This document shows, piece after piece, positions 8,597-52,888 of a stretch of DNA of 57,985 bases. The first letter of the stretch is position 1. The number at the start of each line of letters is the position of its first letter. The position numbers were made by a program, and so were the translations under genes. Under the pieces are notes generated by a model. That model was given only the letters and a program-made list of their open reading frames with translations. It did not search any database and was not told where the DNA came from. Source of the stretch: a virus (lineage: Duplodnaviria > Caudoviricetes); IMG/VR virus record IMGVR_UViG_3300010397_000011, positions 1 to 57,985 of that record. One strand, 5' to 3'.

Positions 8597-8663
8597 GGTC
8601 TCTCTCCTTCGTGTTTGGGTGTTGGTGTCAATAGGGTGCCGCACTAGGGGGGTAAAGCGCACG

Positions 8664-29881: not shown

Positions 29882-30217
29882 CTAGACCGCGCGGCACTTC
29901 ACTGTGAGGGTGACGTCCTCGGTGACGTCGAGCGTCAGCGTCTCGGGCCACCACGTGAGGGGCAGGCGGCGAAGCTGATCGAGCGCGTCCTCGACGATCG
30001 GCCGGTACCCGCCGCCGACCGCGTGCATGATGCGCGCTGCGACAACGACGAGCGCGACGTCCTCGGCTGACCAGCGGCGCGCGCTACCCGACCCGCGTGC
30101 GTCGACGGTGGGCTCGACGAGGTGGGTGCGCACGAGGTAGTCCAGGGTCCGGTAGGAGATCGACGCCTCACGTGCGACTTCGAGGGACGTCATCGTCTTA
30201 ACGGTGGTGCCGTTCAC
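29882..30217 (-). CDS. MerR-family HTH regulator
   Basis: EVAREASISYRTLDYLVR..LVEP...GSGSARRWS..DV; leaderless GTG 7 nt after TAGCGT. Confidence 0.85.
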   Translation of the reverse strand: MNGTTVKTMTSLEVAREASISYRTLDYLVRTHLVEPTVDARGSGSARRWSAEDVALVVVAARIMHAVGGGYRPIVEDALDQLRRLPLTWWPETLTLDVTEDVTLTVKCRAV

Positions 30218-30320
30218 CCCTGTAACGCTATCGCCGCGCACGCTGCCGCCTGCGGTTATGCCGACCGCGCGTCACATGAACTGTGCGTGGCGCGCGGGTG
30301 CCCGTAAGGTTCACGGCCCT

Positions 30321-33097: not shown

Positions 33098-33222
33098 CAC
33101 TGCTCGTCGTCCGTCCACGGCACGCGGGTCGGCTTGCCATGCGGGCCGTCGTGTCCCTCGTCGAGCCCGCATCGGTACGCGTGCTTCACCACCGGCAGCC
33201 GGATCACGTGCGCGCACCTCAT
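33097..33222 (-). CDS. 41-aa Zn-binding peptide (not in ORF track)
   Basis: MRCAH...RCGLDEGHDGPH; ATG overlaps the terS stop. Confidence 0.45.
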   Translation of the reverse strand: MRCAHVIRLPVVKHAYRCGLDEGHDGPHGKPTRVPWTDDEQ

Positions 33223-33872
33223 CGGTGGCCGTTGCCGTTCGTCTTCGCCTTCCGGTCCTGCGCGTCCTCCGCGTCAGCGATCCCTTGCATGTACGCGCGC
33301 AGCGAGTCGGCCAGGTCGCGTGCCCGCTCCTCGGCAGACACACCAGCCGAGTCGGACGTCTCCAACTCGTAGCGCCTGCGGTACTTCTCGGGGAAGCGCC
33401 GCTCGAGGAACCACGCAGCTGCCGTCCACTGCGGAGCCAGCGTCTCGGTCCGCTCGATCTCCTCGACGACGACCATGCGCGGCCGGTTCGGGTCCGACGT
33501 GTCGAGCCTGCGCTTGACCAACCGCTTCGTCACGACCGCGCCGCCCTCGCCAGCACGGGTCACGACGAACAGACGCGACGCCTCGACCTCGGCCTCGGCT
33601 GTTTCAAGTGCGTCAAGAAAATCTGCGTACCGCTGTTCGCGTTCGTCGAGGTCGTGGCCGTTGGCTTGCTTGGCGCGTGCGTTGCCGCCTGCTCGTCGCC
33701 AGTTCCAGAGTGTTTGGCGGGTGATGTCTGCGCCGGCGGTGGCGTCGTCGAAGTCGGCGCCGAGTCTGATGCGGTCGAGGATGTGGTCGGCGGCTGTGAC
33801 GGGTGTGCCGTCCTTGCGGGTGCGGATGACGCGGTCGAGGGTGGGGGGTACTCCGCGGCGGCCGTCGGGCAT
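33219..33872 (-). CDS. terS: Terminase small subunit
   Basis: HTH ITRQTLWNWRR, YADFLDALETAEA and WTAAAWFLERRFP motifs; upstream of terL. Confidence 0.78.
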   Translation of the reverse strand: MPDGRRGVPPTLDRVIRTRKDGTPVTAADHILDRIRLGADFDDATAGADITRQTLWNWRRAGGNARAKQANGHDLDEREQRYADFLDALETAEAEVEASRLFVVTRAGEGGAVVTKRLVKRRLDTSDPNRPRMVVVEEIERTETLAPQWTAAAWFLERRFPEKYRRRYELETSDSAGVSAEERARDLADSLRAYMQGIADAEDAQDRKAKTNGNGHR

Positions 33873-36382: not shown

Positions 36383-36443
36383 AGAGCCTGAGGGCTCCGT
36401 GCGGGGCACCGATCCCGAGGAGGGACCGATGCCCCGAGGCGCA
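36383..36443 (-). ncRNA. Repeated intergenic two-hairpin RNA motif, copy A
   Basis: UGCGCCU-CGGGGCAUCG..CGGUGCCCCG-CAC-GGAGC-N6-GCUCU. Confidence 0.7.
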
Positions 36444-36494
36444 ACCTTCAGGGGCGCCCAGGGGTGCCGCTAGGGCGCCGCTGGGGGGGCCGAA

Positions 36495-37451: not shown

Positions 37452-37470
37452 GGTCTCTCTCCTTTTCGGT

Positions 37471-37527
37471 GGAGCCTGATTGCTCCGTGCGTGGCACCGA
37501 CCGATCAGGCCGGTGCCACGAGGCGCA
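37471..37527 (-). ncRNA. Repeated intergenic two-hairpin RNA motif, copy B
   Basis: UGCGCCU-CGUGGCACCG..CGGUGCCACG-CAC-GGAGC-N6-GCUCC. Confidence 0.7.
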
Positions 37528-37531
37528 ACAA

Positions 37532-38116
37532 TCACGCGGTCTTCTTCGCTGCTCCCTTCTTCGGAATCGGGGTGACCTCGCGCTTGCTGGCCGGGGTCTT
37601 CTTCGCCGCGGCCTTCGCCGGGGTCTTCTTCGCCGTCTGCTTCGCGGCGGGCTTGCGGGTGACCTTCTTGACCGGCTCGGCCTCGGTGGTCTCGGCGCTG
37701 GTCGCCTCGTCGGTGGAGGGCTCCTCAACCTTCTGACCCTTCACCGTCGCGATCCCGTGGGCCGCGTTGATCGCGTCCAGGTTCGGGGTGTCGGGCAGGG
37801 GCTCGCCGTTCGCCTTCGCGGTCTTCAGTGCGCGGGCCTCGGCCATCGCGAGGTTGAGCACCTCGACCGGCGCGACCTTCCGTGCCTTCTTGCCACCGCT
37901 GCTCTTGCGGCCCTCGCCGCGGGGTGCGGGCTCGGGCAGATCGATCGGGGTCCACTTCTTCCCGTCGCGGACGAACATCTCCCGCATCGGCTTCTGGACC
38001 TTCTTGCCGGTTGCCTCACGGCACTCGTAGCAGTGGGGGGTCCGACTGGCCGGAGGCTGGTCGGCCTCGACCTCACGGGAGTGTCCGCACGTCATGGTGA
38101 ATCGGTAGGTGGGCAT
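37532..38116 (-). CDS. Zn-ribbon protein with histone-H1-like Lys/Ala tail
   Basis: CGH...CYEC; KKTPAKAAAKKTPA tail. Confidence 0.65.
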   Translation of the reverse strand: MPTYRFTMTCGHSREVEADQPPASRTPHCYECREATGKKVQKPMREMFVRDGKKWTPIDLPEPAPRGEGRKSSGGKKARKVAPVEVLNLAMAEARALKTAKANGEPLPDTPNLDAINAAHGIATVKGQKVEEPSTDEATSAETTEAEPVKKVTRKPAAKQTAKKTPAKAAAKKTPASKREVTPIPKKGAAKKTA

Positions 38117-38152
38117 GGTCTCTCTCTTTCGTAAGCCGTCACTGTGACGGTC

Positions 38153-38208
38153 GGAGCCTGAGTGCTCCGTGCGTGGCGCGGACCCGAGGGCCCGTGCCAC
38201 GAGGCGCA
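38153..38208 (-). ncRNA. Repeated intergenic two-hairpin RNA motif, copy C
   Basis: UGCGCCU-CGUGGCACGG..CCGCGCCACG-CAC-GGAGC-N6-GCUCC. Confidence 0.7.
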
Positions 38209-38212
38209 CCAC

Positions 38213-38738: not shown

Positions 38739-39215
38739 CTATCGGTTGCGCCGCTGTGCTGCGCGGCGGGCTTTCGCGTCTGCTGCCACTCTGTCCTTGC
38801 GGTTCTGAATCATCGCGGCGGCCTCCTCGGCCACTGCCCTGAACGCGTCATCGACCGAGACCTCCTCGTCTCCGATGAACGCACGGATCGAGGTGATCTC
38901 CCCGCTGTCGATGTCCCGCTCAAGGGAGTCGAGGGCGTCAGCCTTCGCGGCCCGCTCGACGAGGGACCGAAGGATGCGGTGCTCCCTCGCCAGGTTCTGC
39001 CGCTCTGCCGCGAACGCCGCGGCCTCAGCCGCGTGCCGGGCAATGAATGCGGGGTCGGTGGTGATGTTGAACCCGCCCTCGACTTCGGTGAGGGTGCGCT
39101 CGGCAATGCTGATGACCTCTCGGAGCTCCCGCTTCAGGGAGTCCTCGCTCGCCGCTTGCTCGGTCGCCATTGCGTCGAGCCGTTCGGCAATCAGTCGGTC
39201 GGTGTTGGTCGTCAT
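38739..39215 (-). CDS. Helical hypothetical early protein
   Basis: 158 aa with RBS GAAAGGA. Confidence 0.65.
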   Translation of the reverse strand: MTTNTDRLIAERLDAMATEQAASEDSLKRELREVISIAERTLTEVEGGFNITTDPAFIARHAAEAAAFAAERQNLAREHRILRSLVERAAKADALDSLERDIDSGEITSIRAFIGDEEVSVDDAFRAVAEEAAAMIQNRKDRVAADAKARRAAQRRNR

Positions 39216-39228
39216 GGTCGTTGTCCTT

Positions 39229-39306
39229 TCAGAACAGGTTGCCCACCACGATGTGGTGGACGAGGTGGACGGTCAGGGCCAGGCGGTGCAGGGCGCACTG
39301 AAACAT
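39229..39306 (-). CDS. Possible 25-aa leader peptide
   Basis: GGAGAG RBS, MFQCALHRLALTVHLVHHIVVGNLF; stop overlaps the RBS of the next gene. Confidence 0.35.
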   Translation of the reverse strand: MFQCALHRLALTVHLVHHIVVGNLF

Positions 39307-39309
39307 TGG

Positions 39310-39763
39310 TGCTCTCCGATCGGGTGGTCGTGGTCGTGGTCGTGGTCTCTGTCGTGGAGTGGAAGCACTCCGTGCGAGGCACCGACTGGGCGCAGCACAC
39401 GGTCACTGGGAATCGGGGCTCTCTTGTTTCAGCCCATCTGCCGGTCGCCCGGTTTCTTCTCCGTCCCTACGTGTGCTGCACCCAGCCGATGCCCCGAGGC
39501 GCAGGGCTTCACTGGTGTTGCAGCGGGAGTGTCGTGACGTTCGGGGTCACACACACTCTCGACTTGCTCGACTCCGCCCCTCACGGGACTTCGGGTAACA
39601 CGTGCACCCCGTCGCTCGGCTGCACTTCCCCGGACCTCCTGCACTTCGGCTCAGCCCTTGCATCACGCTCGGCCTTCGCAGGTCCCAGTCCGCTCTCAGT
39701 AGGTGGACTTCCCTTTGGGGGCTCCATCCCTACCTACCTCTTTAGTTTTCAAGGTTCTTTACC
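39310..39763 (-). ncRNA. Large structured leader/ncRNA containing extended motif copy D (39356-39503)
   Basis: No credible ORF; many nested stems, GNRA loops (CCC-GUGA-GGG, CCGG-GCGA-CCGG) and G-U pairs on the minus strand. Confidence 0.68.
39741..39757 (-). promoter_or_regulatory. boxA-like antitermination element
   Basis: GAACCTTGAAAACTAAA resembles the Gram-positive rrn boxA (GTTCTTTGAAAACT); just downstream of the predicted start site. Confidence 0.55.
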
Positions 39764-39769
39764 CCCCTA

Positions 39770-39798
39770 AAGGTAGGGTCGGGGCTGGGGCGATGCCA
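39770..39798 (-). promoter_or_regulatory. Putative sigmaA-type early promoter
   Basis: TGGCAT-17 nt-TACCTT. Confidence 0.5.
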
Positions 39799-39995
39799 CC
39801 ACAGACGCACATCCCGAGGACTTTGTTTGGCAGCAGCTGCCGAAAGTTCGCGGCGCTCTGAGCAGGGGAAACGACCCAAAACGCCCAGCCCAGGGAGACC
39901 AACTTGACAGTTATCGGCGCCAGCGGAGAGCGGCTACAACTTGGCAGCCGCTGCCGAGAGCGACGAGCCCGGCAGATAGCGGGTGCTGTCTTTAA

Positions 39996-40478
39996 TCAGA
40001 CCGGAGTGAGGACCGCGGCGAGGAGCCCGCGCAGCGCGTCCATGTCGACGGCCCACGCCGCGCACGCGAGCGCGGACGTCGGCCAGTCGTCGTGCTTCCC
40101 GTAACCGATGATCGGCACGTCACGCTCGACCATCACGCTGGCCTCTTGCATCGTGCCGTCCGAGCCGGGGAGCACCACGCCGACCTCGGCCACTGACCCG
40201 ACGAGCGCGTTGCGAAACGGGATCGTCAGGCCCGTGCGGAGTGCGATCGACAGTCCGCTCGACGGCGGCTGATACGGAGACGCGGGGATCAGTCCGATCG
40301 CGAGCCCACCGACCGACGTCGCTCCTCGAGCAGCCGCGTCCATCACGCCGCCGAGCCCGCCGCACACGAGGGCCAGGTCGTCGCGCTCACCGACCACTCG
40401 GCCGACGTCGTACGCGTCGAGCTCTATCTCAGGGGGGCAGTTCTTCCCCTTGCCGATCACGCACACGACGCGCCTCAT
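39996..40478 (-). CDS. LOG/SLOG-family (TIGR00725-like) nucleotide phosphoribohydrolase
   Basis: CVIG, LVCGGLGGVMDAAARGA...GG..IGLIP, RNA and PGSDGTMQE motifs. Confidence 0.85.
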   Translation of the reverse strand: MRRVVCVIGKGKNCPPEIELDAYDVGRVVGERDDLALVCGGLGGVMDAAARGATSVGGLAIGLIPASPYQPPSSGLSIALRTGLTIPFRNALVGSVAEVGVVLPGSDGTMQEASVMVERDVPIIGYGKHDDWPTSALACAAWAVDMDALRGLLAAVLTPV

Positions 40479-40744
40479 GCGAGACACCCTGCGTGGCTGA
40501 GGAGCGCGTAGCAGAACGCGAACGTGAGTACCTCTTTGCGGATGCGAGGATCGTCGAGCGGGACTCCCTCCGCGCTCATGGCGGTGATCTTGTCAGAGCA
40601 CTTCGTCTGGATGATGGCGAGCACGGCCGCCTCGACGCCAGCGTCAGCAATCGCGGACCAGGCTTGCACCGGGCCGTGGATGTGCAGCGTGCATCCCTGC
40701 ACGCTCTGCCTCAGCCGATCGGCAAGGGCCTCGGCGTCAGGCAC
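40475..40744 (-). CDS. Small hypothetical protein in the modification operon
   Basis: Overlaps the folE stop and the LOG start. Confidence 0.55.
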   Translation of the reverse strand: MPDAEALADRLRQSVQGCTLHIHGPVQAWSAIADAGVEAAVLAIIQTKCSDKITAMSAEGVPLDDPRIRKEVLTFAFCYALLSHAGCLA

Positions 40745-41372
40745 CGAACACGTGAGGCTTCGAGGTGGCGAGGGACTGGAACTCCCGCCGCCACGGGTCA
40801 TCGCGCAGGATGCCCCGATACCCGGTGACGACGACGACCTCCTGGCTCGGCGCGTTGGACTTGCAGATCAGACACATGTGGATCGACGCGAGGGAGAGCG
40901 CGACGCCCTTCGGTTCGAGCACCGCTTCGAGCGCGTCGAGGGTGTCGACGAGCAGACGCTCGTTCAACTGCGGCTGGCGTGCGAGGTAGTTCAGTCCCTT
41001 CTTCACCTTCGAGTACCCCGTGATCTTCTGGTCGGGCACGTACGCGAAGTGGGCCACGCCGAGAGCGGGCATCAGGTGGTGCTCGCACATCGACACGTAG
41101 TGGCAGTCCGTCACGGTGATGAGGACGTCGTCCTTCGCTGGGTTCGGGAACGTCTTCCACGGGATCTCGATGTCGCACCACGCCGCGTTGATGATGTCGC
41201 CGTACATCTCCGCGATGCGCCGTGGAGTGTTCGCCATCACCTCGGCCTTGTCGGACTGGCCGAGCCCTTGAAGCAGCAGGGTCACGCCACGCTCAAGCGT
41301 GTCGAGGTCGACCGGCTTCGGCGGGAGCGGCGCGCCGACGGGGGCGTGGTCGTTGTTCGTGACGGTGGTCAT
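40737..41372 (-). CDS. folE: GTP cyclohydrolase I (divergent)
   Basis: TPRR, SMCEHHLMP and HMC Zn ligands; SK and ERL present. Confidence 0.92.
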   Translation of the reverse strand: MTTVTNNDHAPVGAPLPPKPVDLDTLERGVTLLLQGLGQSDKAEVMANTPRRIAEMYGDIINAAWCDIEIPWKTFPNPAKDDVLITVTDCHYVSMCEHHLMPALGVAHFAYVPDQKITGYSKVKKGLNYLARQPQLNERLLVDTLDALEAVLEPKGVALSLASIHMCLICKSNAPSQEVVVVTGYRGILRDDPWRREFQSLATSKPHVFGA

Positions 41373-42143
41373 TCAGGTTCCTTTCACCATTGCGTCGAGG
41401 GTGTCGGTCCAGAGTTGACGTCGAGCCATGACGGCCGCGACCGCGGCGCGCCGGGCTGACGTCCAGTCCTCCTCGGTTTCGCACACGGCCTCGACCAGCC
41501 CGCGGGCCAGCGGCCCGTGGCTCTCACCGTCGAGTTCGATGTGCCTGTCGAGGTAGTGGCGCAGGGTCGCGCCACCGTTGCTGAGCCCAGCGAGGAGGGG
41601 CTCGAACATGGCGGGGATCAGTTGCTCGCGTCCGAGCGTGAACGCCGCGGCGATGGCGGGCAGGTTGCCCGTGCCGATGATCCCGAACGTGGTCGTGAGG
41701 AACCGCTCGGCGCCCGGCGGTGCGCCGAACTTCCGTGCGATGCGGGGCACCTCGGGGAGATGCCACTGCTGGCCTGGCGCGTGGAGGTGGCGAAGGGTCG
41801 CGTCGATGGCGGTGAGGTTCGCACCGGCCTCGACCATCGCCAGCCGGTACATCGACACGTGGTCGATGAACCCCTCGCCGTAGGTGTCGCACTCCTCGCC
41901 GGTCTTGATCTCGTTCACGAAGCGGGCCGCGGCCGGCGACCGTGACGGGAGCCACGGGACGGACGTGCACGTCGTGCGCAGCTGCAACGCAGTGAGCAGA
42001 GACATGAAGTCCCACACGGCCCACACGTGGTGCTCCATGAACAGGCGCAGGCGGGGCAGGGAGTCGAGCGCGTAGTAGAGCGGGTGCCCGACCACCTCGG
42101 CGCGTGTCGGTGCGACCGCTTCGGCCAGGTCGTCGAACGTCAC
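41373..42143 (-). CDS. DUF3050 heme-oxygenase-like diiron protein
   Basis: HPLY, FMEHHVWAVWDFMSLL, NEIKTGEECD, AAAFTLGRE and YLDRHIELDGESHG motifs. Confidence 0.88.
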   Translation of the reverse strand: MTFDDLAEAVAPTRAEVVGHPLYYALDSLPRLRLFMEHHVWAVWDFMSLLTALQLRTTCTSVPWLPSRSPAAARFVNEIKTGEECDTYGEGFIDHVSMYRLAMVEAGANLTAIDATLRHLHAPGQQWHLPEVPRIARKFGAPPGAERFLTTTFGIIGTGNLPAIAAAFTLGREQLIPAMFEPLLAGLSNGGATLRHYLDRHIELDGESHGPLARGLVEAVCETEEDWTSARRAAVAAVMARRQLWTDTLDAMVKGT

Positions 42144-51179: not shown

Positions 51180-51587
51180 CTACAGGGGGGTAACGGTAGG
51201 GCACACCGCGGGTGCAGTGTGCGTTCGCTGAAGTCGCTCGGGCAGGTGCAGCACCTGCCGTTCGGAGATAGGCGGGAGCATCACGTGCACACCGATCTTC
51301 CAGCCCTCGACGTCCACAAGGTTGAACTGGTCGAGCCGCTTCAGTGTGCGTTGCACGACGGCCTGCTTGCCCGTCCCGCCGTGCAAGCCCACCATCCGGC
51401 CGACCTCCTCGATGTCGACGGTGAGCCCATCGGGCTCGGCTGCCAGCCACTGCACGAACCGTCGGTACAGCCACACACACGACGGCCCGACGGTCGGCAG
51501 CCAGTAGGTCTCCACGTACGGGGAGAACGGCGCGATCACGTCGATCGCTCGGACGGGTAGCGCCTCGACCCAGCGGTCCTCACTCAT
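51180..51587 (-). CDS. RepA/DnaB-like winged-helix protein
   Basis: YVETYWLPTVGPS..WLYR...RTLKRL.QF. Confidence 0.5.
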   Translation of the reverse strand: MSEDRWVEALPVRAIDVIAPFSPYVETYWLPTVGPSCVWLYRRFVQWLAAEPDGLTVDIEEVGRMVGLHGGTGKQAVVQRTLKRLDQFNLVDVEGWKIGVHVMLPPISERQVLHLPERLQRTHTAPAVCPTVTPL

Positions 51588-52673: not shown

Positions 52674-52888
52674 GGTCTCTCCGTTCTTGCACCGCACCGC
52701 GCGGTGCTGCCGTAACCCTACCGCAGGGGTGTGACATACCCCGCTAAAGCAGACGCGAGGCGGCCCCGCTACCACGCACCCGAGAGACCATGCCTAGTCA
52801 ACCGAAGGTGCGTAGGAACGGGGCCACCCGTGAGGTGCCGCCCCGGCCAAGGGGAAGGCACGCCCACGGTACCGCACTGCGCGTGCTG

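What the first reader, a model, noticed from the sequence alone, without database searches (positions are those of the whole stretch)
39310..39798. ~450-nt highly structured leader RNA starting with an rrn-type boxA
After a TGGCAT-17-TACCTT promoter the minus strand reads GAACCTTGAAAACTAAA (boxA-like) and then a run of stems: GUAGGU/ACCUAC, GGACCU/AGGUCC, GUGCA/UGCAC, CCC-GUGA-GGG, GAGUGU..GUGAC/GUCAC..ACACUC. It ends with a ~26-bp helix (motif copy D) capped by a multiway junction containing CCGG-GCGA-CCGG and GGGCU/AGCCC. No credible ORF covers it and the loops are purine-rich. Inference: a large ncRNA, or a processive-antitermination leader that recruits host NusB/NusE for the ~5 kb early operon without an N-like protein.
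Basis: partly seen in the sequence, partly recalled or inferred. Interest (0 to 1): 0.78.

Follow-up and report, generated by a model that had tools for sequence, protein, structure and literature searches.

The report
Folded phage leader RNA with ribosomal boxA
A soil phage of high-GC Gram-positive bacteria starts one of its long gene blocks with about 460 untranslated, conserved, folded bases that begin with the short signal these bacteria place ahead of their ribosomal RNA genes, which suggests that the phage borrows the host's anti-termination machinery.

Summary
Window 39307-39995 (minus strand) is a 689-nt gap without a gene. It contains a TAnnnT -10 box, the 10-mer CCTTGAAAAC (39754-39745) and a chain of hairpins. 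It ends in a fourth copy of an intergenic two-hairpin motif.

Only two relatives were found (IMG/VR contigs, loci L013 and L014). They keep the leader. Substitutions show no codon periodicity and indels break every frame, so it is non-coding. Helices P1-P5 keep pairing through double changes: 7 of 32 pairs on the MAFFT alignment, 0 of 500 shuffles as high.

CCTTGAAAAC is the only word of 8 bases or more that all three phages share between the -10 box and P2. The same box sits 130-360 nt before the 16S gene in sampled Actinomycetota: 9 of 30 and 7 of 22 leaders carry the exact 10-mer, and 3 of 22 share 14 bases.

The "26-bp helix with junction" is a 98-nt strain-specific insertion. It is absent from both relatives and from contigs in three soil runs.

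Best reading (0.45): a cis-acting leader whose rrn-type boxA loads Nus factors. What the folded core does is unknown. No RNA data exist, no host is known, and no Rfam family matches.

The scan earlier noted boxA with large leader RNAs in phiEco32-like coliphages, and phage T7 has a boxA. I therefore rate this a new variant of a known kind.

The parts
39770..39798 (-). Promoter-like element: TGGCAT (39798-39793), 17-nt spacer, TACCTT (39775-39770). The inferred start lies in the G-run 39767-39762.
   Evidence: Read. The -10 box is kept as TACCTT in L013 and TATCGT in L014. Similar TAnCnT boxes precede other short-leader genes. The generic sigma-70 scan does not call it. The start site is not mapped.
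39740..39757 (-). rrn-type boxA-like element GAACCUUGAAAACUAAAG; core CCUUGAAAAC at 39754-39745.
   Evidence: It is the only match in the 58-kb genome at up to 1 mismatch. It is the only word of 8 bases or more shared by the three phages between the -10 box and P2. It is identical to the box 130-360 nt before the 16S gene in sampled Actinomycetota.
39699..39737 (-). P0 hairpin (GUAGGU...ACCUAC around a C-run/G-run hairpin). This is a variable module: the relatives have other hairpins and 115-142 nt more here.
   Evidence: fold; segment lengths 87, 229 and 202 nt.
39631..39692 (-). P1-P2 domain: P1 CGGACU/GGUCCG, P2 CCUGC/GCAGG, inner P2a GGC/GCC and P2b AGC/GCU. The purine-rich internal loops (GAAG, CGAAG) and the apical loop are conserved.
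   Evidence: The same fold appears in all three sequences. 5 of 6 P1 pairs and 3 of 3 P2a pairs show double changes in the hand table. On the MAFFT alignment, 3 of the 6 P1 pairs and 1 of the 7 P2a/P2b pairs do (helices 1, 2 and 4).
39602..39625 (-). P3 hairpin GUGCAGCC-GAGCGAC-GGGGUGCAC with a conserved loop.
   Evidence: In L013 the G.G mismatch is replaced by A-U.
39576..39589 (-). P4: a 5-bp stem capped by a GNRA tetraloop (GUGA).
   Evidence: All three sequences have a 5-bp stem plus a GNRA loop (GUGA, GCGA, GUGA) with different stem sequences. 3 of 5 pairs show double changes on the alignment.
39527..39558 (-). P5: a long hairpin with the conserved loop C(C/U)CGAAC.
   Evidence: The inner 4 pairs are all compensatory in the hand table.
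39503..39526 (-). Conserved linker (A/C)UGCAACAC-N-AG-N-GAAGCCCU, predicted mostly unpaired.
   Evidence: Invariant block in alignments A1 and A2.
39356..39502 (-). Copy D of the intergenic two-hairpin motif. H1 arms are at 39502-39486 and 39385-39370; H2 (GGAGUG-CUUC-CACUCC) is at 39371-39356.
   Evidence: Repeat family D13. Copies are listed. H1 and H2 are supported by covariation and G.U pairs over 8 copies.
39387..39484 (-). A 98-nt insertion in the loop of H1. It lengthens H1 to about 26 bp and adds the three-way junction. It is strain-specific.
   Evidence: Absent in L013 and L014. Contigs of soil runs X2, X5 (skip 98) and X4 (skip 95) lack it, and X2 also holds the form with it. It is unique in the genome. 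IMG/VR has 0 matches to a 25-mer of it.
39307..39355 (-). C/A-rich tail: GAGACCACG, which is the start-associated box with ACG in place of ATG, then (CCACGA)x4, then GGAGAG (39317-39312) before the first ATG.
   Evidence: Composition is C 43% and G 20%. AGACCACGACCACGACCAC is invariant in the three sequences.
39229..39306 (-). First ORF after the leader: 25 aa, hydrophobic (MFQCALHRLALTVHLVHHIVVGNLF).
   Evidence: 24 of 25 codons end in G or C (counted by eye). It is kept in L014 with 3 amino-acid changes and is absent in L013.
36383..36445 (-). Motif copy A (H1 + H2), followed by GAGAGAGACC-ATG-CC.
37470..37529 (-). Motif copy B, before the DUF932 gene.
   Evidence: DUF932.
38152..38210 (-). 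Motif copy C, before the 194-aa gene.

Best explanation
The stretch is the untranslated 5' leader (about 455-460 nt) of a minus-strand transcription unit. That unit starts at a TAnnnT promoter near 39770 and runs through genes of unknown function, including DUF932, towards the terminase genes.

Proposed steps:
1. The first conserved element of the RNA is an rrn-type boxA (CCUUGAAAAC). By analogy with rrn operons, phage T7 and lambdoid nut sites, the host NusB-S10 pair binds it.
2. Binding converts RNA polymerase into a complex resistant to Rho and to termination. This would protect the long, ribosome-free leader and the hairpin-punctuated operon behind it.
3. The middle of the leader (P1-P5, about 190 nt) is a conserved folded domain with purine-rich loops and a GNRA tetraloop. 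It probably acts in cis as a binding or regulatory platform; what it binds is unknown.
4. The leader ends in the same two-hairpin module that precedes three downstream genes. That module resembles the 'extended start-associated sequence' (ESAS) architecture of cluster K mycobacteriophages and probably acts on translation start or mRNA processing.

Shown here: non-coding status, conserved pairing, identity of the box to rrn-leader boxes, and the modular, indel-prone build. Inferred only: the promoter, Nus-factor binding, antitermination and every function of the folded core.
For: Non-coding status:
- Mismatches against L013 and L014 fall evenly over the three codon phases (16/13/9 and 17/13/15), with 13 and 10 indels, mostly not multiples of 3.
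- The neighbouring PF18306 gene gives 14/10/40 and 11/8/42.

Structure:
- The modules fold alike in the three sequences.
- On MAFFT alignment A2, 32 pairs are 91.5% paired, against 27-46% when the partners are slid.
- 7 pairs carry double changes, against 0-4 when slid. 0 of 500 shuffles reach this.
- The hand-aligned table gives 16 of 32 pairs compensatory, 13 invariant and 3 with a non-pair.
- G.U pairs in P1, P4 and H1 fit this strand only.

boxA:
- It has one exact copy in 58 kb.
- It is the only shared word of 8 bases or more in a segment of 87, 229 and 202 nt.
- In L013 and L014 it follows a small hairpin. The B. subtilis paper describes the same order for rrn leaders (PMC13753749, passages).
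- In 30 16S loci of the class of a Microthrixaceae MAG, 15 carry CTCCTTGA(A/C)AAC-type boxes at -190 to -360, and 9 carry the exact 10-mer.
- 5 of those 30 carry a second box in the 16S-23S spacer.
- In a phylum sample, 7 of 22 usable leaders hold the 10-mer and 3 of 22 read GTTCCTTGAAAACTAAAC. That is 14 identical bases with the window, and 13 (14 in L179) with L013/L014.
- The best local match between the phage leaders and the rrn loci is this box, 22-24 nt at 86-87%.

Precedent: T7 carries a boxA behind its early promoters (PMC3709561, introduction passage). boxA also serves suhB and CRISPR leaders (PMC13753749, passage).
Against: - No RNA data exist: no RNA run holds the stretch, so neither transcription nor the start site is shown.
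- The generic promoter scan finds nothing.
- Only three related sequences exist, and the tested structure was derived from them, so the covariation statistics are weak. The tool itself warns of this bias.
- The relatives' leaders fold only slightly better than shuffles (z = -1.31 and -1.41).
- A 10-mer with up to 1 mismatch is expected 0.44 times per genome by chance.
- The host is unknown. The link to Acidimicrobiia rests on one three-gene block at 57/45/38% identity.
- No canonical intrinsic terminator lies on this strand in 22-41 kb for a complex to overcome.
- In E. coli suhB, boxA is recalled to act in repression rather than read-through, so the direction of the effect is open.
Confidence: 0.45

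Rival explanations
1. A free-standing non-coding RNA. The P1-P5 domain, about 190-250 nt, would be cut out of the primary transcript, for example at the motif D helix, and would act in trans on a host or phage factor. boxA would serve only to get this untranslated RNA made, as in rRNA operons.
For: The conserved multi-helix core has invariant loops and a GNRA tetraloop, which is typical of RNAs with tertiary structure. It matches no known family. Earlier notes of this scan describe boxA followed by 0.8-0.9-kb folded RNAs in phiEco32-like coliphages (unchecked AI notes).
Against: No terminator or defined 3' end separates the core from the first ORF. The core sits directly in front of the motif that precedes ordinary genes. 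No RNA ends are known. A later check of the coliphage cases priced the 'RNA in its own right' reading at 9-15 in 100.
Confidence: 0.17
2. A structured regulatory 5' UTR, such as a sensor for a ligand or protein or an mRNA-stability domain, in which the boxA likeness is coincidental or has another role.
For: Structure conservation holds whatever the box does. One 10-mer can match by chance (expectation 0.44 per genome at up to 1 mismatch).
Against: The box is the only conserved word in a segment that otherwise diverged and changed length 2.5-fold. Identity with rrn leaders extends to 14 bases. It sits promoter-proximal, and after a hairpin in two of three phages, as in rrn leaders.
Confidence: 0.25
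3. A DNA-level element, such as a replication origin, recombination site or packaging site, whose inverted repeats only look like RNA stems.
For: The region is modular and prone to swaps.
Against: Within 39310-39700 the pairs include strand-specific G.U pairs and compensatory changes. Stems are capped by GNRA loops in all three phages. The same hairpin module sits immediately before ribosome-binding sites of four genes, all on the sense strand.
Confidence: 0.06
4. The region encodes one or more small proteins, for example the 48-aa ATG ORF at 39727-39581.
For: ORFs of 30-71 codons exist on the sense strand. The 48-aa ORF has short peptide-level similarity to an L014 ORF (38 aa at 60%).
Against: GC3 is 0.56-0.77 for all but one, against 0.85-0.95 in genes. 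The exception (33 aa, GC3 0.91, start 39406) runs through the strain-specific insertion and the CA-rich repeat. Similarity appears in all six frames and switches frame. Substitutions are not concentrated at third positions, and indels are mostly not multiples of 3.
Confidence: 0.03

Closest known systems
rrn operon leader boxA and the Nus-factor antitermination complex (NusB-S10, NusA, NusG, SuhB)
   Same: A short single-stranded box lies close to the promoter, and in two of the three phages it follows a small hairpin. Its sequence is identical over 10-14 bases to the box found before the 16S gene in sampled Actinomycetota. It resembles the B. subtilis consensus AUGAUCUUUGAAA (PMC13753749, passage). 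It heads a long untranslated, folded RNA.
   Different: It heads a phage mRNA rather than rRNA. No second box was found elsewhere in the genome. No similarity to rrn leaders extends beyond about 24 nt. Binding and function are untested.
boxA of coliphage T7 behind the early promoters A0-A3, and lambdoid nut sites
   Same: A phage places the host's boxA behind host-RNAP promoters so that host Nus factors modify transcription (PMC3709561, introduction passage).
   Different: The host phylum is different. Here the box is followed by a conserved folded domain of about 190 nt. The lambda type needs boxB plus the N protein, and no such partner was looked for or found here.
boxA plus large folded leader RNA in phiEco32-like coliphages
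   Same: The layout is the same: a host-type promoter, then rrn-type boxA, then a conserved structured non-coding RNA without an Rfam match, ahead of phage genes.
   Different: There is one promoter and one box rather than tandem arrays. The RNA is about 0.45 kb rather than 0.8-0.9 kb. No sequence relation was tested. The source is AI notes that I did not verify.
SAS and ESAS (start-associated and extended start-associated sequences) of cluster K mycobacteriophages (PMC3203893, passages)
   Same: Imperfect inverted repeats of about 17 bp, with a variable spacer, sit immediately upstream of a conserved box that includes the ribosome-binding site and start codon. They recur before a subset of genes, all in one orientation.
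   Different: The sequences are different. A second small hairpin (H2) is present. In copy D the spacer has grown to 98+ nt and the start codon of the box reads ACG. The function is unknown in both systems.
RNase III processing hairpins between phage T7 early genes
   Same: Conserved hairpins sit in intergenic positions of a polycistronic phage transcript.
   Different: H1 is only 13-15 bp in copies A-C, which is shorter than the roughly 20 bp recalled as usual for RNase III. No cleavage data exist.

Membership tests
rrn-type boxA (Nus-factor loading site) | The sequence matches the boxA of the host lineage's rrn leader. | tested here: met
   The exact CCTTGAAAAC occurs in 9 of 30 (class sample) and 7 of 22 (phylum sample) rrn leaders. 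3 of 22 read GTTCCTTGAAAACTAAAC, with 13-14 bases identical to the phage versions. Caveat: the true host is unknown.
rrn-type boxA (Nus-factor loading site) | It lies on the transcript, promoter-proximal, upstream of the region to be protected. | tested here: inconclusive
   The box starts 15 nt after the TACCTT box in the window, and 47 (L013) and 48 (L014) nt after it in the relatives. The promoter is only predicted (one search finds none), and no RNA data exist.
rrn-type boxA (Nus-factor loading site) | It is preceded by a small hairpin (boxB-like), as in rrn leaders. | tested here: inconclusive
   A hairpin precedes the box in L013 and L014 but is missing in the window.
rrn-type boxA (Nus-factor loading site) | It is conserved among relatives while the flanks drift. 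| tested here: met
   It is the only common word of 8 bases or more between the -10 box and P2 in the three phages.
rrn-type boxA (Nus-factor loading site) | It binds NusB-S10 and confers read-through of Rho-dependent or intrinsic terminators. | not testable with these tools
   This needs binding and reporter assays.
Lambda-type nut site | A boxB hairpin bound by a phage N protein with an arginine-rich motif. | not tested
   No search for an N-like protein was made. Most downstream proteins match no Pfam or PHROG family.
Any Rfam family (including GOLLD, ROOL, riboswitches and actinobacterial sRNAs) | A covariance-model score at or above the family's gathering threshold. | tested here: not met
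   There are 0 matches in the whole window at gathering thresholds. Within 39150-40050, only 6 chance-level matches appear at E up to 10, with a best score of 20 bits against a 137-bit cut-off.
Cluster K mycobacteriophage SAS/ESAS | Imperfect inverted repeats of about 17 bp with a variable spacer, directly upstream of a conserved start-associated box, repeated before several genes. | tested here: met
   There are four copies in the window and five in the relatives' loci. H1 has 13 consensus pairs with spacers of 4-9 nt. The box GAGAGAGACC-ATG-CC follows copies A-C. This is likeness of architecture only. Sequence relation to the cluster K consensus was not tested, so I do not file it as a member.
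Protein-coding gene | Third-position excess of substitutions, frame-preserving indels and high GC3. | tested here: not met

The most novel reading that the evidence does not exclude
The P1-P5 core is a new class of structured phage RNA that works as an RNA in its own right, for example as a sensor or decoy that times the switch from replication genes to the packaging and virion genes. On this reading, phages of Actinomycetota, like phiEco32-like coliphages, independently adopted the host's rRNA-type boxA to get such untranslated RNAs made. 'boxA plus large folded RNA' would then be a recurrent phage strategy across bacterial phyla.
Probability: 0.15. Interest if true: 0.72.

Novelty: new variant of a known kind. 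Interest (0 to 1): 0.52.

Why it matters
Processive antitermination through boxA is textbook for E. coli rRNA operons, lambda and T7. It has barely been studied in Actinomycetota, and in the searches I ran it was not described for their phages.

If the box works here, it gives a simple, testable handle on Nus-factor antitermination in a phylum where intrinsic terminators are weak and Rho is important. It would also show that phages of distant hosts converge on the same trick to make long untranslated RNAs.

The folded core is a candidate new RNA family. With only three members its function cannot be read from sequence.

The 98-nt insertion is present or absent in natural soil populations. It therefore serves as a natural experiment on how much of the terminal hairpin is dispensable.

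Tried and rejected
- **Rfam.** The whole window at gathering thresholds and the region at E up to 10 gave nothing credible.
- **GenBank phages.** blastn 'distant' with 39200-40000 found no match. tblastn with the 158-aa protein found no match. The DUF932 protein reaches only 38% identity, to Microbacterium phages.
- **IMG/VR.**
  - The 158-aa protein found no relative.
  - The 17-mer around the box gave 11 loci, all unrelated and mostly low-GC chance matches.
  - The core 24-mer pattern found only the two known relatives.
  - The hairpin-motif pattern found only the same two contigs.
  - The insertion 25-mer gave 0 matches.
  - The DUF932 protein found 5 loci. Three of them (62%, 55% and 45% identity) have coding sequence where the leader would be.
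- **Metagenome contigs.** A 20-mer pattern gave 28 loci, none homologous.
- **Genome contigs.** DUF932 found no relative. FolE found 80 loci, of which only the Microthrixaceae MAG stands out.
- **Protein search.** The PF18306 protein has 5 relatives at E <= 1e-20. They may hold further leader homologues.
- **Expression.** No RNA holder was listed for the stretch.
- **Host search.** DNA searches of the whole phage against G151, G179, G193 and G001 gave only low-complexity or FolE matches. No spacer-like or prophage-like match appeared. The G001 region around FolE holds only three of the phage's genes.
- **Sequence capture.** I considered that the phage leader was captured from an rrn leader. 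No similarity extends beyond about 24 nt, so I rejected this.
- **Mobile element.** I considered that the 98-nt insertion is a multi-copy mobile element. There is no second copy in the genome or in the relatives.
- **Terminators.** No terminator-like site lies on the minus strand in 22-41 kb.
- **Supplements.** Supplementary files of papers were not consulted. Figure S1 of PMC13753749 (rrn leader alignment) and Figure S4 of PMC3203893 could bear on the consensus comparisons.
Full report
**What the window is.** The window is a complete IMG/VR virus record of 57,985 bp with a 123-bp terminal repeat and about 68% G+C. Its nearest cultured relatives are Microbacterium phages, at only 38% identity for the DUF932 protein. 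Genes around the finding lie on the minus strand.
- Upstream are a helicase-like ORF, DUF3050, a GTP cyclohydrolase I-like gene (FolE) and a PF18306/TIGR00725-family gene (39996-40487).
- Downstream are a 25-codon ORF, genes of 158, 171 and 194 aa without family matches, DUF932, several small ORFs, then the small terminase subunit (33219-33872) and the large terminase ORF.
- Between 39995 and 39307 lies a 689-nt gap with no coding signal. GC3 there is 0.5-0.8, against 0.85-0.92 in the flanking genes.

**The observation.** RNAfold reproduces the stems.
- Against dinucleotide shuffles the window's leader is more stable: z = -2.78 (0 of 100 shuffles as good).
- For the 5' 268 nt alone, z = -2.48 (1 of 200).
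- The two relatives' leaders are only marginally more stable: z = -1.31 and -1.41.
Thermodynamics alone would therefore not carry the claim.

**Relatives.** Only two related contigs could be found in all the collections I could scan (loci L013/L018 and L014/L019). Their flanking genes are 84-86% identical to the window at the DNA level. The leader is 72-77% identical in its core and diverges strongly at its 5' end. Three more distant DUF932-bearing contigs have coding sequence at the corresponding place.

**Non-coding status.** Sense-strand ORFs of 30-71 codons exist, but all but one have GC3 of 0.56-0.77. The exception (33 codons, GC3 0.91) runs through the strain-specific insertion and the CA-rich repeat.
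- Similarity between the three leaders appears in all six frames and hops between frames.
- Mismatches fall evenly over the three codon phases (16/13/9 against L013; 17/13/15 against L014).
- There are 13 and 10 indels, mostly not multiples of three.
- The neighbouring PF18306 gene shows the coding pattern: 14/10/40 and 11/8/42, with a single 3-nt gap.

**Conserved structure.** Five modules fold alike in the three sequences when folded separately:
- P1 encloses P2, P2a and P2b (39692-39631).
- P3 is at 39625-39602.
- P4 is at 39589-39576, a 5-bp stem with a GNRA loop in all three sequences.
- P5 is at 39558-39527, with the conserved loop C(C/U)CGAAC.
- A conserved unpaired linker follows at 39526-39503.

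In a hand-aligned table, 16 of 32 pairs show changes on both sides that keep pairing, 13 never vary and 3 include a non-pair. In P1, five of the six pairs are compensatory.

On the unedited MAFFT alignment A2 the result is similar:
- 32 pairs are 91.5% paired, against 27-46% when the 3' partners are slid by 1-3 columns.
- 7 pairs carry double changes, against 0-4 when slid.
- None of 500 column shuffles reaches the observed values for four of the five measures.

The caveat is that there are three sequences and the structure was derived from them. Several pairs are G.U (P1 pair 6 in all three sequences, also P4 and H1), which fits an RNA of this strand and not its complement.

**The box.** CCTTGAAAAC (39754-39745) begins 15 nt after the TACCTT box. 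It is the only match in the genome at up to one mismatch. Chance expectation at that stringency is 0.44, so presence alone proves little. Three other points matter more.
1. Between the -10 box and P2 the three phages differ in length (87, 229 and 202 nt). Within that segment they share no word of 8 bases or more except this 10-mer.
2. In L013 and L014 the box follows a small hairpin. This is the order described for B. subtilis rrn leaders, whose consensus is AUGAUCUUUGAAA, against E. coli UGCUCUUUAACA (PMC13753749, passages read).
3. It is the box of actinobacterial rrn leaders, as the next two paragraphs show.

The route to those leaders was the FolE gene. Its best match among 185,579 species genomes is a Microthrixaceae MAG (57% identity, against 38% or less for the other 79 loci kept). 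In that MAG, FolE, the PF18306 gene and DUF3050 are adjacent, at 57, 45 and 38% identity. No other phage gene lies within 40 kb.

- **Class sample.** In 30 16S loci drawn from that MAG's class, 15 carry CTCCTTGA(A/C)AAC-type boxes 190-360 nt before the 16S gene, and 9 carry the exact 10-mer. 14 of the 15 loci with G+C of at least 0.55 have a box. 5 of the 30 carry a second, similar box in the 16S-23S spacer, which is where boxA is known to recur.
- **Phylum sample.** In 22 usable leaders of 28 loci, 7 hold the exact 10-mer. 3 (L167, L169, L179) read GTTCCTTGAAAACTAAACAGCGT. That shares CCTTGAAAACTAAA with the window and GTTCCTTGAAAAC with L013/L014 (AGTTCCTTGAAAAC in L179).

A local alignment of the phage leaders against the 30 class-sample rrn loci puts this box on top (22-24 nt at 86-87%) and finds nothing longer. 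The leader therefore copies the signal, not the rrn leader as a whole.

**The terminal helix.** Motif copy D belongs to a family of four copies in the window and five in the relatives' loci. Each copy has:
- a 13-15-bp imperfect hairpin H1 with a variable loop;
- a 5-6-bp hairpin H2;
- in copies A-C, the box GAGAGAGACC-ATG-CC.

Over eight copies, both hairpins are supported by double changes at four pairs and by G.U pairs. The architecture matches the 'extended start-associated sequences' of cluster K mycobacteriophages, whose function is still unknown (PMC3203893, passages read).

In the relatives, copy D is an ordinary short hairpin. The window carries 98 extra bases (39387-39484) in its loop, which create the 26-bp helix and the three-way junction.
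- Contigs from three other soil runs skip exactly this piece: X2 and X5 skip 98 nt, X4 skips 95 nt.
- X2 holds both forms.
- The piece has no second copy in the genome.
- It has no match in IMG/VR.

It is therefore a dispensable, strain-level insertion and not a core part of the RNA. Another X2 contig replaces 39662-39920 by 347 other letters. That fits the variable 5' module seen in L013 and L014.

**After copy D.** The start-associated box reads ACG where the other copies have ATG. Four CCACGA repeats follow, making a C-rich, G-poor tail (C 43%, G 20%) that is invariant in the three phages. Then come GGAGAG and the ATG of a 25-codon hydrophobic ORF with near-maximal GC3. L014 keeps this ORF and L013 does not.

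**Mechanism proposed.** A host-RNAP promoter fires and the nascent RNA presents boxA. NusB-S10 and the other Nus factors make the elongation complex resistant to Rho and to pausing or termination. This lets it cross about 460 nt of ribosome-free RNA, including a C-rich, rut-like tail, and then the hairpin-punctuated operon.

The folded core P1-P5 is kept by selection for a purpose that cannot be read from three sequences. I favour a cis-acting platform for a protein or a switch. The hairpin module at the end acts on translation start or processing, as at the three genes downstream.

The steps shown here are sequence-level only. Binding, start site, read-through and any role of the core are inferred. 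T7's boxA behind its early promoters (PMC3709561, introduction passage) and boxA at suhB and CRISPR leaders (PMC13753749, passage) show that the principle is known outside rRNA.

**Comparison and novelty.** No Rfam family matches. Three searches found no paper on boxA in phages of Actinomycetota:
- boxA, antitermination, rrn, Mycobacterium; 20 papers, 15 listed;
- boxA, antitermination, mycobacteriophage, any two terms; 99 papers, 15 listed, none listed with both boxA and mycobacteriophage;
- boxA, NusB, actinobacteri-, phage; 2 papers, neither on the topic by title.

Earlier notes of this scan describe the same layout (promoter, rrn-type boxA, large folded RNA) in phiEco32-like coliphages. 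I did not verify those notes beyond reading the T7 passage. I therefore rate this as a new variant of a known kind: a known signal in a new host phylum, attached to an undescribed folded RNA with a very small known family.

**Limits.** There are three sequences, no host and no RNA data, and the promoter is only predicted. The unpublished genomes G166, G138 and G122 were in the sample but contribute only to its tally.

Noticed in passing
window 39229-39306 (-): A 25-codon hydrophobic ORF (MFQCALHRLALTVHLVHHIVVGNLF) is the first ORF after the leader. 24 of its 25 codons end in G or C. L014 keeps it with 3 amino-acid changes; L013 lacks it. It could be a small membrane peptide or a leader peptide.
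   Followed up: partly
window 40737-42143 (-) and 39996-40487 (-); G001:C2:1468117-1470335: The phage's DUF3050, FolE-like and PF18306 (TIGR00725-family) genes are also adjacent, in a different order, in a Microthrixaceae MAG, at 38, 57 and 45% identity. No other phage gene lies within 40 kb. This hints at the donor or host lineage (Acidimicrobiia).
   Followed up: partly
L019 808-880: The relative contig carries three to four tandem copies of a unit of about 22 nt (GGCTCCTCGGGGGAGACA..GTG) in a non-coding stretch far upstream of its leader. It may be an iteron-like or operator array.
   Followed up: no
window 39323-39355 (-): In copy D the start-associated box reads GAGACC-ACG instead of GAGACC-ATG. 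Four CCACGA repeats follow. The tail is C 43% and G 20%, looks unstructured and is invariant in the three phages. It could be a Rho-loading (rut-like) tract or a translation enhancer.
   Followed up: partly
window 39662-39920: In soil run X2 one contig replaces this part (promoter, box and 5' hairpins) by 347 other letters, while another X2 contig matches the window exactly. The 5' module of the leader is swapped between co-occurring strains.
   Followed up: partly
window 39827-39843 and 39941-39957: Two near-identical palindromes (GGCAGC-N-GCTGCC core) lie 114 bp apart in the upstream half of the gap. The 23-nt block CGCCGATAACTGTCAAGTTGGTC between them is identical in L013 and absent in L014. 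They are probably protein-binding DNA sites.
   Followed up: no
window 37532-38116 (-): The 194-aa protein behind motif copy C has a Lys/Ala/Pro-rich C-terminal repeat (AAKKTPAK type). Its DNA hits low-complexity stretches in four actinobacterial genomes. It resembles the tails of actinobacterial histone-like proteins (recalled).
   Followed up: no
L129, L130, L134, L150, L153 (16S-23S spacers): In 5 of the 30 genomes of the MAG's class, a second boxA-like word (C(C/T/A)(C/T)CTTGAGAACT(G/A)CA(T/G/C)AGCGAGCA(C/T)) lies 240-340 nt after the 16S 3' end. This supports reading the leader word as boxA in this class.
   Followed up: partly
window 8642-8657, 30212-30227, 51180-51195, 52734-52749 (-): Other intergenic sites share a C(T/G)TTA-(C/G-run) box with the leader's promoter region (39757-39772). 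Three are followed within 35-80 nt by the GAGAGACC-ATG start box, so those promoters have short leaders. That makes the 460-nt leader the exception.
   Followed up: partly
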